Of a stretch of DNA of 64,000 nucleotides, positions 1,504-27,419 are shown one piece after another. The notes under the pieces were generated by a model. The model was not told the origin of the DNA. It ran no database searches and was given only the letters and a program-made list of their open reading frames with translations. The stretch covers positions 121,520,001-121,584,000 of the forward strand of contig OZ024740.1 in the NCBI GenBank assembly GCA_964016885.1, read 5' to 3'. The DNA is from Eledone cirrhosa. Lineage: Eukaryota. The translations under genes and the position numbers were made by a program. Position 1 is the stretch's first letter. Every line of letters begins with the position of its first letter.

Positions 1504-1868
1504 TTATACAAGTAAAAATTAGCGAGAATCGAATTTCAGCCTATGAAATAACGAAAAAACACTTTCGAATTGTGAGGCAAGCGCTCAATAATTCAAAAGA
1601 ATTAGAGCTTACAACTTACGTTAAAGGCCAGACACACTGAGATGATGGTTAAACTAATTATCCACACACCGAAGATTCGATCTCCTATTTCGAGTCAAAC
1701 AGATATACAGATATAAAAATATATGAAAGCATAAATGTTTTATACTTATATATTAATAAGAGGAATTCCAACTTTGTCTGATTTACTCGTTTTATTTACA
1801 ATCCTTTAAAAGGGATAATGGTATTATAATGAAATAGTATGATAGAATATTAAATGTTAAGTGTTAAT

Positions 1869-1907
1869 TGAACAAGTACTTTCATGCTTTCGCAATCTTC
1901 AGGTCCA
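1869..1907 (-). ncRNA. Minimal type I hammerhead ribozyme motif
   Basis: Minus strand reads tggac-CTGAAGA-t-tgc(gaaa)gca-t-GAAA-gtac-TT-gttca. Confidence 0.75.
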
Positions 1908-2002
1908 TAATGTGTGGTGACAGTCAAGTTTGCAATTTTCAACTGTAAACAGTTAAAACTGTGACAGTTGAACATTGCAAACTTGACTGAAACCACACAT
2001 TA

Positions 2003-2041
2003 TGAACCTGAAGATTGCGAAAGCATGAAAGTACTTGTTCA
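2003..2041 (+). ncRNA. Minimal type I hammerhead ribozyme motif
   Basis: tgaac-CTGAAGA-t-tgc(gaaa)gca-t-GAAA-gtac-TT-gttca: 5-bp stem I, palindromic stem III (agtact), CUU triplet. Confidence 0.8.
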
Positions 2042-2074
2042 ATTAACACTTAACATTTAATATTCTATCATACT

Positions 2075-22243: not shown

Positions 22244-22290
22244 ATATATATATATATATATATATATATATATATACATACATATATGTA

Positions 22291-24476
22291 TAAAATTGAA
22301 AATGTAGAGAATAACATGGTCAACAGTACAAAAAGGGGAATTTATTGACGGTCTAACAATTGTTTCTCTGATAAAGTTGTGTAAAGCAGTGCCACTCAAT
22401 TTCAAATACAATTTCAAATACTTAAGGCAGGCCATAAAGAGAGACTCAAATACCTACCAGATACAAAAATAACAAGACACTTAATATTAATAACACTATC
22501 CACACGTATAGAAGCAGCAGTTTTATGACTAAATATAGAAAGTGGCAACAAGCACGTAAATTAAATGAACAGAATACTCATATAAAGACCACTAATAACT
22601 CGAGAAGATGCAGAAATAGAAACTACTTATGGTTCAATCCAATGTTTGACTCCTCTATAAAAACAAAACTACCTTACACTTTCTTCAAATTGGTTGACAA
22701 ACACTTCCATAAATTCATAAATATCATAAAATCTTTAATAGAAAAACTATCAAACTATCATACTACACTGCCAACAATATAGAATCGCACATACATAACA
22801 TTAACTATAAAATAATTTATAATACAAGTAGCCCGCAAATAAGTACCATAACACCAAATACAAGTCATAAGCATATATCATCATCACAACCAAACACACA
22901 TCAGAACACATCACCACAATACATCAACAAACCCAATTCTCAACCCATACATAACAACCTACAAACAACATATCGAAGAACCGGCACATAAAAAAGCATC
23001 TAAATGTAACTGCCATCTACCTGACAAATGCACTTTACAAAATAGATGCCTAGAGACAAATATAGTATACCTATTTACTATAGATTCAGGTAGCTTAGCA
23101 TGGAATTACATTGGTTCCACAGTTAGGGAGTTTAAGAAAAGGTGGTACGTCCACAGTTACTCTATGATTAACAGGAACCTCTCAAACACAACAACTCTCG
23201 CCAATAATATCTGGTAACTCAAGAATGAAAACAACGAATATAAAATCAGCTGGACGAAGCTATCAAATTGTTATGTACCACCGCGGTCTCTGTAATATGG
23301 AACTTTTCTAAATTTTAAATTACAACAAAATGCTTCTTAACAGTAAAATAAAAAAAATTGTTTTCTTTGGGCATAGGTCGGCAACCAAATTTGAGAACTT
23401 TAGACCAGCTTAATTTCATCTTATCTATTCCATAAGCCTAATTATACCACTTAGATCTATTATAATATCACATCATCATCATTATTATTATAAGAATTAT
23501 CATCTATCAATGAACAACATCAAAACCTCTTATATTTACATTCTTATTTTATATATCTCTATCTTTCTCTCTCTATCTTTATATTTCTTTCCCTAAATTT
23601 ATTTCATCTCTGGCATTTTATTTTCATATATTTTACTATATAATATAACTTACAACTAATTAATTTATTTATTTATTAAAATAACCAATACACACATAAA
23701 TATATTTAACATTATCATATGTATACCTTCATGTATCTCTGTGTATTGTAGCCATTCTCAAAAACCACTCTCAATAATCTTAATATGTTTAAATTTTCTT
23801 CGCATATTTTTACTTTTTTACTTATTTATTTTAATATTTTAATATTTTCAATTTTCGTTTTTCACATTTTATACCTTTTTATATCAAATTAGATATAATT
23901 TATTTATTTATTTATTTATATATTTATTATTATTTTTATTTACATTTATGCATGTATTAACGTTTATTCATTTATTGTTGATATCATTATTTTCCCTCTA
24001 TTTTACTTTCTCTCCTACGTTATTTCTCCTCATGTTTTTTTCTTCTCTTTCTACCATCACTTTTACATATATTTTCTTCTCTCTATATTTTTCTCTGTAT
24101 TCATTTCTCTTTCTTCCTCTTCTTTCTGTGTTTCTTTTTCTTTTTCTTTTTTCTTTTTCTTTTTCTTTTTCATTTTCTTTTTCTCTTTTTTCTTTTTCCT
24201 TTTCCTTTATTTCTCTTCTGTATCTATCTCCCTTTCTTTCTCTTTCTTTCCCTATATCTTTATTATTAATATTATTATTGATGATGTAAATCGAATTAGT
24301 AAATTTGCCGGTTATATATATATTTATAATACTTTCTGAAGATCTGATCGAGCTAGCACTGTATTTGAAAGTGTTCAATAATTTTTAGACAACATTTTAG
24401 AAACAATTGTTAGACTGTAAATAAATTCCACTCTTTTTACATTTGGACCATGCTATTCTCTACTTTTTCAATTTTA
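22291..24476 (+). mobile_element. Degenerate Hydra-type PLE 3' part with inverted pLTR
   Basis: WFNPMF...FFKLVDKHF; CNC-x5-C-x5-C at about 23004-23050, then IVY...NYIGSTVREFKKRWY.H; arms 22291-22412 and about 24358-24476. Confidence 0.85.
24333..24414 (+). ncRNA. Degenerate hammerhead motif
   Basis: ttt-CTGAAGA-tctgat...GAAA-caattg-TT-aga; the inverted left arm retains atcaga, which would close stem II. Confidence 0.55.
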
Positions 24477-24934
24477 TTACACAAAAATTAACTTACATAG
24501 GAATACAAGAGAAATCATAAACTCGTCATTACGTAAACATCTTGTTGAGTCAATCAACGCCGTACGCTAAAACTATCCATGAGAGGAAGTATTCACAACC
24601 TTTAACTGGATTACCTATAACGATATTTTGTTATCCCTTACACACACACACACACAAACATATATATATATACATATGTATCTATTTATCTATCTATCTA
24701 TCTATATATATATATATATATATATATATATATATATATATATATATATATATATATATATATATATATATATATATATATATATATATATATATAATAA
24801 TTGTTTCTATCTAGGCACAAGGCCAGCAATTACCCTGTGCATTACTGGTACCTTATTTTATATATTATAATAATAATAATAAAATGTGGAGAGGAGGCAC
24901 ACGAGTTAGGATATATATATATATATATATATAG

Positions 24935-27419
24935 GAAAACAGGGAGAAAGAGACGATTATGAAGAAGAACACTATTTTTTTCGCTTTTCTTTGTTTCTCT
25001 GTCTCCTTTTTTCGGCTTAGAAAATGATTAAAACGAAATATTTTACTTTGTGTGAAGTGTTAAGTTATTAGTTGATTTATTTATTATTTAACAATAGCAT
25101 TTATTTATCTATTTATATATTTAATTATTATATGCATTATCAAATTTATATGCATAACATTTATAAGCATTTATAACATTTATATGCATTATCAAATGAT
25201 AGTGAAATGTATTAGTGTGGTGTCGTACATGTTAAGCAGAAGGTGCAGAAAGAATAATGTTATATACAAACAAGGTTTATGAAGTGAAAATAAAAAAATA
25301 AAAAATAAAATGGAAAAATAAACGTGCATAATGAGGAACGTAAAAAGTCGATGTGGAAGAAAAAATAATGCTATTTACAAGCACAGTCATTGAAGTTAAG
25401 CAGTTCAAAATGTGTTAATTTCGCAATGGTTCCGTGAAGGAGGCAAATGGTGGACTGTGGTTTGATATGACTTCTCTTTTTAGAGAGTTAATATTCAGGG
25501 GGAAGCAATTCTTGCTGGGTGATATTTAATTTATTTAAGAAAAAAAGATTAGGTAGGGTGTGAGGGAGGTAACTCTTGTAAATGTTTGATGGTTTGTTGC
25601 AGTTTTAGATTGGTCTGATTTTTAGGGCATTTAGTAGTGGTTGAAATTTATTAATGAAATGTGTTTACTTATTGGTACGTTGGATGAAAGTAGCGTTGTC
25701 TATGAATTTGTAAATGGGGAAAATGTTAAAGTTTGGATGTTGGTTGAGAGCAAAATTGGCGATATTTTCACTACATGCAATCTTTCTGTATTCCTGTATT
25801 TTAATTTGTGATTTATGGACGGTCATACGTTGACGGAGGCTGTTTTTTGTCTGTCCTATCTAGTGCTCTTGACAACCTGAGCAGGTCAAAACATCGGTAA
25901 AGTTTTCAGATGCACATGTAATGTTGTGTTTAACTGTGAAACGTTGTCCTTGTTTAAAATGGAATATTGAACTTTCTATTAGATTTATGTATATGCCACA
26001 GGTGGGCCTTACACATTTTGTTACTGTAGGGTTCATTGTGAGGGTTTGCTGGATTTTGGCTTGTGTGAGGATGTATTTTTATGGATTTGGGTTGTCCTTT
26101 GCTCTTTATGATGTTGTGTGTTTGGAGGATATTGTTCATTCTTGGGTCTCTTTTTAGTAAAGGAATGTTCTGGAGGATGGTGTCGAGAATGAGGCATTCG
26201 ATACCATCCTCCAGAACATTCCTTTACTAAAAAGAGACCCAAGAATGAAAAATATCCTCCAAACACAACTTAAAGAGCAAAAGACAACCCAAATCCATAA
26301 AAAACATCCTCACACAAGCCAAAATCCAACAAACCCTCACAATGAACCCTACAGTAACAAAATGCGGAAGGCCCAACTGTGGCCTATGCATAAATCTAAT
26401 AGAAGGTTGAACATTCCATTTTAAACAAAGACAACGTATCACAGATAAACACAACTTTACATGTGCATCTGAAAACCATATCTATGTTTTGACTTGCTCA
26501 GGTTGTCTAGAGCACTATATAGGACAGACAAAAACAGCCTCCGTCAACGTATGACCGTCCATAAATCACAAACTAAAATACAGGAATACAGAAAGATTGC
26601 ATGTAGTGAAAATATCGCCAATTGTGCTCTCAACCAACATCCAAACTTTAACATTTTCCCCATTTACAAATTCATAGACAACGCTACTTTCATCTAACAT
26701 ACCAATAAGGAAACACATTTCATTAATAAATTTCAACCCCTACTCAATGCCCTAAAAATCGGACCAATCTAAAACTGCAACATACCATCAAACATTTACA
26801 AGAGTTACCTCCCCTCACACCCTACCTAATCCTTTTTCTTAAATAAATTAAATATCACCCAGCAAGAATTGCTTCCCCCTGCATATTAACTCTCTAAAAA
26901 GGGAAATCATATCAAACCACAGTCCACCATTTGCCTCCTTCACGGAAGCATGGTTCAACTAAGCACTCTTGCAATATTAACACATTTTGAACTGCTTAAC
27001 TTCAATGACTGTGCTTGTAAATAATATTATTTTTTCTTCCACATTAACTTTTTACGTTCCACATTATGCACGTTTTTGTTTTCCTTTTTCTTTTTTCTTT
27101 TCACTTCTTAAACCTTGTTTGTATATAACATTATTCTTTCTGCACCTTCTGTTTAACATGTGCGACACCACTCCAATACATTTCACTATCATTTGATAAT
27201 GCATATAAATGTTGAAACAGGAAATAGACAATAATTAAATATATAAATAGATAAATAAATGCCATTGTTAAATAATAAATAAATCAACTAATACCTTAAC
27301 ACTGCGCACAAAGTAAAACATTTCGTTTTAATCATTTTCTAACCCAGAAAAAAGAGAGAGAAAAAAAAATTGAAAAAAATATTTGTCTTCCTCATAATCG
27401 TCTCTTTCTCCCTGTTTTC
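24935..27419. mobile_element. 2.5 kb palindrome of two tail-out Neptune-type PLE 3' ends (Cys linker, GIY-YIG, 3' UTR)
   Basis: Centre gaatg-agg-cattc near 26193; right arm reads CGRPNCGLC...FTCASENHIYVLTCSGCLEHYIGQTKNSLRQRMTVHKS; left arm has the same on the minus strand; (TA)n on the left, (CA)n(TA)n on the right. Confidence 0.9.

What the first reader, a model, noticed from the sequence alone, without database searches (positions are those of the whole stretch)
1749..27419. Recurring tail-out palindromic PLE-type insertions, most carrying hammerheads: eight structures in 26 kb with no evident mutual similarity
Seen: inverted structures at 1749-2330, 6744-7106, 7121-8038, 17516-17944, 19225-19543, 19557-20373, 22291-24476 and 24935-27419. 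Wherever a hammerhead or GIY-YIG gives orientation, the left arm is on the minus strand and the right arm on the plus strand. The 3' ends therefore face outward to (TA)n or (CA)n, and the 5'-truncated ends meet in the middle. Five of the eight have no recognisable coding sequence. Established: PLEs carry minimal hammerheads in pLTRs and often integrate with an inverted 5' pLTR. Inference: the usual product here may be a fold-back element made by priming reverse transcription from both ends of a cut in (TA)n, or these may be a class of non-autonomous ribozyme-bearing palindromic retroelements.
Basis: partly seen in the sequence, partly recalled or inferred. Interest (0 to 1): 0.85.

Follow-up and report, generated by a model that had tools for sequence, protein, structure and literature searches.

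The report
Mirror-image stumps of Penelope-like retrotransposons
The eight palindromes are real stumps of several Penelope-like jumping-gene families, likely doubled into a mirror image each time one lands in a TA repeat, which is a known habit of these elements and not a new kind of element.

Summary
All eight inverted structures are real. Arms differ by 0-13% substitutions and all eight point 3'-outward. Artefact is unlikely: one arm of S1 holds its own insertion with a 15-nt duplication, six have a 69-162 nt tail on one arm only, and S8's frameshifts are arm-specific. S6 and S7 carry Hydra-clade-type endonuclease remains, S8 a Neptune-type one. Hammerheads are canonical in 3 structures, complete in one arm or variant in 3, and decayed in 2. 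This is the published PLE insertion geometry (inverted 5'-truncated copy plus optional tail). The palindrome is unlikely to be the mobile unit: S4's family also occurs as a single arm in the window and as an asymmetric fold in reads. Six of nine have symmetric centres, and 5 of 7 short ends sit on TA motifs. I therefore favour both cut ends priming on one RNA (about 0.5) over cDNA fold-back (about 0.3). No centre was checked with long reads. The scan noted the same thing before in two other genomes.

The parts
1749..2330 (.). S1: symmetric palindrome, canonical hammerhead in both arms (1868-1908 minus, 2002-2042 plus), 4-nt loop near 1955; no tail; TATA target
2075..2228 (.). Secondary ~154-nt insertion in S1's right arm, flanked by a 15-nt duplication (2060-2074, 2229-2243)
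4830..5151 (+). Family A: very abundant repeat; reads as the 3' half of another hammerhead at 4863-4877 when the majority read letters are used; joined to the S4-family copy
5155..5412 (+). Single-arm sister copy of S4 (family B), canonical hammerhead 5219-5285, long tail end in (TA)n, no inverted arm
6610..7106 (.). S2: palindrome 6744-7106 plus ~134-nt tail on the left arm; complete long-stem-II hammerhead only in the left arm, its core lying in the 15-nt central loop
7121..8124 (.). S3: palindrome 7121-8038 plus ~86-nt tail on the right arm; U4A hammerhead in both arms; 140-nt internal duplication in each arm
14830..17075 (+). 5'-truncated Hydra-type PLE (RT, endonuclease, hammerhead 16935-17058) starting next to (TA)n, no inverted arm: the simple product
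17517..17944 (.). S4: arms identical over 170 nt, 2-nt centre, canonical hammerheads, ~86-nt tail on the left arm, (TA)n on both sides
19146..19543 (.). S5: palindrome 19225-19543 plus ~79-nt tail on the left arm; hammerhead 3' half and stem II, degenerate core
19554..20445 (+). S6: 128-nt inverted end (minus), Hydra-type endonuclease remains 19660-20125, hammerhead, ~69-nt tail on the long arm; 6-nt self-complementary microhomology at the junction
21231..22240 (.). S9 (missed): ~60-nt inverted arm taken from the region beyond the short 3' end, partial tandem (21284-21562 / 21959-22240), (TA)n on both sides, 3-nt junction microhomology, no hammerhead found
22290..24639 (+). S7: ~100-130-nt inverted end, Hydra-type thumb/endonuclease remains 22567-23419, AT-rich 3' UTR, decayed hammerhead 24330-24417, ~162-nt tail on the long arm
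24935..27419 (.). S8: 1.24-kb arms, each with a C-terminal GIY-YIG-type endonuclease (CX4CxxC plus CxxC before YIG), 3-nt loop inside the ORF, arm-specific lesions, both ends at the same base, decayed hammerhead remnant near 27208-27250

Best explanation
These are 5'-truncated 3' ends of several Penelope-like retrotransposon (PLE) families sitting mostly in TA repeats, and the mirror arm is likely built anew from one RNA at each insertion. Shown: inverted arms, tail-out polarity, hammerhead and endonuclease remains, one-sided tails, different architectures within one family. Inferred mechanism (about 0.5 of the 0.85): the GIY-YIG endonuclease cuts both strands of (TA)n; one 3' end primes at the far RT start (tail end), the other anneals through its self-complementary TA overhang to a TA motif 70-160 nt further in on the same RNA. 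If both copies run to the RNA's 5' end or a common stop, they join head-to-head at a short self-complementary motif and give a symmetric palindrome (S1-S5, S8). If the inner copy is displaced early, the result is a long tailed body with a short inverted end (S6, S7). If the outer copy stops early, a tail-only arm results (S9). If the second end anneals to the cDNA instead, a plain single-arm copy results.
For: Published PLE geometry matches: adjacent inverted 5'-truncated copy, tail on one end, head-to-head most frequent. PAc cleaves and extends both strands and has two RT starts that delimit the tail. One family, three forms: S4 palindrome, single arm at 5155-5412, and an opposite-strand joint 5156/5383 in run X4. 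In X1, 112 contigs have a loose end at 5311 whose consensus runs into (TA)n at S4's short end. Symmetric centres (loops 2-15 nt) in 6 of 9, P about 5e-7 if truncations were independent and log-uniform. S4 arms 0 of 170 differences versus 3.9% to the sister copy. Short ends on an alternating TA run of 3 nt or more in 5 of 7, background 0.21, P 0.005. Tail on the long arm in 2 of 2 (S6, S7). S8's three ORF indels are each in one arm only, and both its ends stop at the same base with no mirrored flank.
Against: No centre of S1-S9 was spanned by reads; the one read call covered only 4830-5416. The 5156/5383 joint rests on 98 reads with one start in 1 of 4 runs, and its polarity is inferred from the 34-nt side; 44 joints were not shown. 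Family B starts at 5155-5156 in all three cases seen, so a recurring centre is not excluded. The symmetry P depends on an assumed length distribution and on ascertainment for palindromes. S5 and S6 short ends lack a 3-nt TA run. S7's arms differ strongly in loop II and S3's central 35 nt pair poorly, which could mean two templates. Tails are 69-162 nt, not the 30-40 nt published. Fold-back gives the same junctions.
Confidence: 0.85

Rival explanations
1. Same class, different last step: a single cDNA folds back on itself (small loop = palindrome, large loop = inverted pLTR), copies itself, and the second target end is captured on that DNA strand at a TA motif. This is a sub-case of the 0.85.
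For: Tiny loops at self-complementary motifs, including mid-ORF in S8; identical S4 arms; tail on the long arm in S6 and S7; junction microhomology in S6 and S9; self-priming was proposed in PMC3846280.
Against: S8's two ends stop at the same base with no copied flank and no TA overlap, which is easier with two primings at one RT start. In vitro both strands are extended on RNA.
Confidence: 0.3
2. Two independent RNAs are copied from the two nicks and joined.
For: Predicted PAc dimer; divergent loop II between S7's arms; an unexplained 4883/5151 opposite-strand joint in 3 of 4 runs that might join two families.
Against: Does not predict symmetric centres, above all 1.24 kb into S8's ORF; S4 arms are identical although copies of this stretch vary (2134 of 11808 X1 contigs at 99% or more to the reference, families A and B pooled).
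Confidence: 0.07
3. Short hammerhead palindromes are non-autonomous elements transcribed and re-inserted as a unit.
For: Family B's 5' end recurs at 5155-5156 in three insertions, and its X1 depth does not fall towards the 5' end (1.4-1.6 million at 5170-5209 versus 1.1-2.1 million at 5230-5289; summed contig depth, a weak measure). Five of eight lack coding sequence.
Against: The same family occurs single-armed and asymmetric; the recurring start is an ATAT that can pair with (TA)n or with itself; eight unrelated families share the layout; S8's template was coding-intact.
Confidence: 0.1
4. Assembly fold-back artefacts or host rearrangements at (TA)n unrelated to insertion.
For: S4's arms are identical; the loci were not checked with long reads.
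Against: Seven of eight arm pairs differ by 2-13%; flanks are not mirrored; S1's one-arm insertion; one-sided tails ending at family-wide positions; strand-switch joints in raw reads of study P2.
Confidence: 0.04

Closest known systems
Insertion units of EN+ Penelope-like elements (Arkhipova et al. 2013, PMC3846280; Craig et al. 2021, PMC8557442; passages read)
   Same: 5' truncation, adjacent inverted 5'-truncated copy, head-to-head junction with palindromes, tail on one end only, hammerhead in the pLTR, microsatellite targets.
   Different: Here most copies are reduced to two inverted ends with no body or direct pLTR; tails are 69-162 nt rather than 30-40; 9 of 13 PLE-type insertions I counted by eye in the first 28.6 kb have an inverted arm.
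Hydra clade of PLEs (PMC8557442, section 11 read in full)
   Same: S6, S7 and the 14830-17075 element: C-terminal endonuclease with CxCX5C linker, no CCHH, canonical-type hammerhead, (TA)n insertion.
   Different: RWK and DKT regions are truncated away in the window; seen only in database relatives (P0001 DKT; P0082 both). No RT tree built.
PAc/Poseidon in vitro mechanism (Frangieh et al. 2024, PMC11167929; parts 1-2 of 4 read)
   Same: Both strands cut and extended; two RT starts bound the tail; AT-rich target.
   Different: Different clade; the parts read do not explain how the inverted copy forms.
Non-LTR retrozymes (bioRxiv 10.64898/2026.07.22.740005; part 1 of 5 read)
   Same: Non-coding, type I hammerhead, PLE-derived.
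   Different: Retrozymes are head-to-tail tandem units; these are head-to-head pairs with one hammerhead per strand.
L1 twin priming (recalled, no call)
   Same: Second target end anneals to the RNA by microhomology and makes an inversion.
   Different: L1 inverts an internal part without duplicating the 3' end; here the 3' end is duplicated.

Membership tests
EN+ Penelope-like element insertion | C-terminal GIY-YIG endonuclease | tested here: met
   S6, S7 hit a profile of relatives at 113 and 100 bits; S8 by visible motifs only (9.8 bits; no homologue). Pfam gave no GIY-YIG hit; Atlas lead PF01541 in 31% of one cluster for the 14830 element. Absent in S1-S5.
EN+ Penelope-like element insertion | Type I hammerhead, often with palindromic stem III, near the 3' end | tested here: met
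   Descriptor scans: canonical S1, S4, S6; partial or variant S2, S3, S7; degenerate S5, S8. Scores of 12 or more: 0 per shuffled window, 0.05. Cleavage not tested.
EN+ Penelope-like element insertion | Inverted 5'-truncated copy, head-to-head | tested here: met
   8 of 8 tail-out
EN+ Penelope-like element insertion | Optional tail on one end | tested here: met
   6 of 8, 69-162 nt; both end types seen in reads for family B
EN+ Penelope-like element insertion | Partial tandem (direct pLTR) | tested here: inconclusive
   Present in S9 and 28020-28595; not in S1-S8 apart from S3's internal duplication
EN+ Penelope-like element insertion | RT of the PLE clade | not testable with these tools
   RT core is truncated from all eight; present only in the neighbour 14830-17075
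Hydra clade (S6, S7) | CxCX5C linker and no CCHH | tested here: met
   S7 and the 14830 element intact, S6 broken by a frameshift; 130 of 151 relatives carry a looser version of the motif
Hydra clade (S6, S7) | RWK and DKT motifs; RT phylogeny | not testable with these tools
   Truncated in the window; found in P0082
Neptune clade (S8) | CX2-5CxxC linker, CCHH cysteines, C-terminal endonuclease | tested here: met
   Read directly from the translation; does not separate Neptune from Nematis
Non-LTR retrozyme | Two or more head-to-tail hammerhead units | tested here: not met
   No direct repeat of a hammerhead unit in S1-S8
Non-LTR retrozyme | Circular RNA | not tested
   No RNA run laid
MITE / foldback DNA transposon | Matching fixed termini | tested here: not met
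   6 of 8 have unequal ends; family B occurs without inverted arm

The most novel reading that the evidence does not exclude
Family B is a ~260-nt hammerhead-bearing, SINE-like PLE passenger with a fixed 5' end whose usual product is a palindrome; and the self-complementary (TA)n overhang is the switch that decides, by annealing to RNA or to cDNA, whether a PLE lands inverted or plain. This would give a sequence rule for the unexplained tandem/inverted PLE structures.
Probability: 0.25. Interest if true: 0.6.

Novelty: new member of a known kind. Interest (0 to 1): 0.3.

Why it matters
How PLEs make their inverted repeats is stated as open (PMC8557442, passages read). A genome this dense in small products of many families is good material to separate double priming from fold-back by counting. 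Such stumps could be mis-annotated as MITEs or microRNA hairpins (Rfam gave only sub-threshold microRNA-type hits). If transcribed they would form long double-stranded RNA (inferred). The structure itself is already described.

Tried and rejected
No whole genome is held, so no genome-wide inverted-repeat census. Rfam found no hammerhead family. Pfam gave no GIY-YIG or PLE RT hit for window pieces or six long relatives. Two homologue searches with S8's endonuclease found nothing. An Atlas look-up for S8 was not obtained. No arm homology at 38310-39235, 30960-32200 or 20516-20967 (z below 0); a templated patch at S3's centre was not significant (z 2.4). The recurring 4870 start of family A is 8 nt from the predicted hammerhead cleavage site, so I rejected ribozyme cleavage as its cause. 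RAD depth (3.2-3.9% of reads, mostly family A) was not used as copy number. Five paper searches showed no paper on symmetric PLE stumps or twin priming in PLEs (none of the listed pLTR papers held 'twin priming'); subscription papers are not covered, and Lunse 2017 and Cervera 2014 were not read. No supplements were read; those of PMC8557442 may show such structures.
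Full report
Observation. Self-BLAST of the masked window recovers all eight structures at the stated coordinates. A tiled sensitive search gives 63-3259 bits for them against at most 39 bits in three shuffles, adds a ninth at 21231-21677, and finds only small inverted pairs beyond 27.5 kb. 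Arm substitutions run from 0 of 170 (S4) to 12.9% (S7). The clustering follows TA repeats: 31 of 37 tracts of six or more units lie in the first 28.1 kb, though insertions also split tracts. S2/S3 and S5/S6 are separated by only 13-14 nt of TA.

Not an artefact. S1's right arm is interrupted by 154 nt with a 15-nt duplication. Six structures have a tail of 69-162 nt on one arm only. Flanks are not mirrored. In S8 each of three ORF indels breaks one arm while the other stays in frame, so the template was coding-intact when the mirror formed. I did not span any centre with reads.

Identity. Descriptor scans find canonical minimal type I hammerheads with palindromic stem III in S1, S4 and S6, a long-stem one in S2's left arm, a U4A variant in both S3 arms, and damaged ones in S5 and S7. 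S8's right arm aligns with a U3:A8-type hammerhead at 21141-21182 (z 5.4) and looks decayed; that U3:A8 is a natural compensatory pair is recalled, not from a call. Rfam detects none. A review describes palindromic stem III as typical of PLE hammerheads (PMC6765202, passages). S6 and S7 hold endonuclease remains 32-35% identical to a truncated RT-endonuclease element at 14830-17075. That protein has 4060 relatives at E 0.001 or better; a profile of 120 of the 151 fetched proteins hits S6, S7 and 32168-32506 strongly and S8 weakly. The CxCX5C linker without CCHH matches the Hydra clade, which inserts in (TA)n. S8 has CX4CxxC and the CCHH cysteines with a C-terminal position, as in Neptune or Nematis. 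The host looks like a cephalopod from recalled repeat content; this was not tested.

Is the palindrome the mobile unit? S4 has a sister at 5155-5412, 3.9% diverged, with the same long tail end and no inverted arm. I laid 4 of 6 listed runs on 4830-5416; X1 may be the assembled sample, X4-X6 are three RAD samples of one other study. The stretch is a chimera: 4830-5151 is another abundant family that most reads leave after 5151. In X1, 112 contigs have a loose end at 5311 that runs into (TA)n at S4's short end. Opposite-strand joints shown: 4870/4870, 4870/5054, 4883/5151 and 5156/5383; 44 joints were not shown. The last has a 34-nt short side, equal to 5383-5416, which implies tail-out with a tail-only arm, but it is one start in one run. 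So family B takes three forms. Against my reading, its 5' end is 5155-5156 each time and depth does not decline towards it. Both recurring starts (4870, 5156) are ATAT, which can pair with the TA target or with itself; 54 X1 contigs have a loose end before 4870 with a TA-like consensus (agreement 0.6).

Mechanism. Six of nine have symmetric centres with loops of 2-15 nt, S3's within an imperfect 35-nt zone; independent truncation would give this with P about 5e-7 under a log-uniform assumption. This points to one template. The short end lies on an alternating TA run of 3 nt or more in S2, S3, S4, S7 and S9 (S9 read by eye, the alignment overshot), not in S5 or S6: 5 of 7, P 0.005 on the conservative background. 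The tail is on the long arm in S6 and S7. Junction microhomology is visible in S9 (3 nt, both templates in the window) and S6 (6 nt). PAc cuts and extends both strands from two RT starts that bound the tail. I infer that both cut ends prime on one RNA, the inner one by TA annealing, and that where each copy stops sets the architecture (about 0.5). Fold-back of one cDNA (about 0.3; proposed in PMC3846280) gives the same junctions; S8's flush ends without copied flank tilt me to two primings. These steps are inferred.

Comparison and verdict. The inverted 5'-truncated copy, one-sided tail and head-to-head junction are described as typical PLE features. The structures fail the tandem test for retrozymes and the fixed-end test for MITEs. 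Two earlier notes of this scan reached the same class verdict on other genomes; they are unchecked and not counted as support, but one gave me the Arkhipova 2013 paper. Verdict: new members of a known kind; the only fresh content is the statistical hint about how the mirror forms. Interest 0.3.

Noticed in passing
window 4830-5412: Chimera of two hammerhead-bearing repeat families joined by three A's at 5152-5154, between (TA)n tracts; likely an RT template jump. 3.2-3.9% of RAD reads lay on the stretch, mostly on family A.
   Followed up: partly
window 21075-21212 (minus): Short single-arm piece between (TA)n tracts with a well-formed hammerhead whose core has U3:A8 in place of C3:G8.
   Followed up: partly
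window 28020-28600 (minus): About 512-nt unit with a 66-nt direct repeat and a hammerhead at 28197-28273, ending in (TA)n: a partial-tandem PLE-type piece without inversion.
   Followed up: partly
window 31215-31322 (+) and 32168-32506 (-): A long hammerhead-like motif and a Hydra-type endonuclease remnant on opposite strands with no shared arm.
   Followed up: partly
window 38500-39230: Minus-strand low-complexity frame ending in an endonuclease-like C-terminus (by eye) and a plus-strand hammerhead-like motif near 39170; no arm homology.
   Followed up: partly
window 40831-40885 and 33747-33809: Small palindromes (55 and 63 nt) inside decayed LINE-like sequence, no hammerhead.
   Followed up: no
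window 9340-11960; 48750-58400: Several related decayed non-LTR retrotransposon copies (RVT_1 at 9374-10288), 67-79% alike.
   Followed up: no
window 43978-47575 (-) and 58650-62160 (-): Two long RT-like non-LTR elements with long open frames (486 and 421 aa in the second).
   Followed up: no
window 3148-3342, 13935-14024, 17078-17204, 24797-24861, 37258-37569, 47820-48011: A SINE-like ~190-nt family in both orientations, never as a fold-back pair: a non-PLE control.
   Followed up: no
window 20516-20967: 450-nt unique piece between two (TA)n tracts with a 42-nt tandem duplication; possibly another element end.
   Followed up: partly
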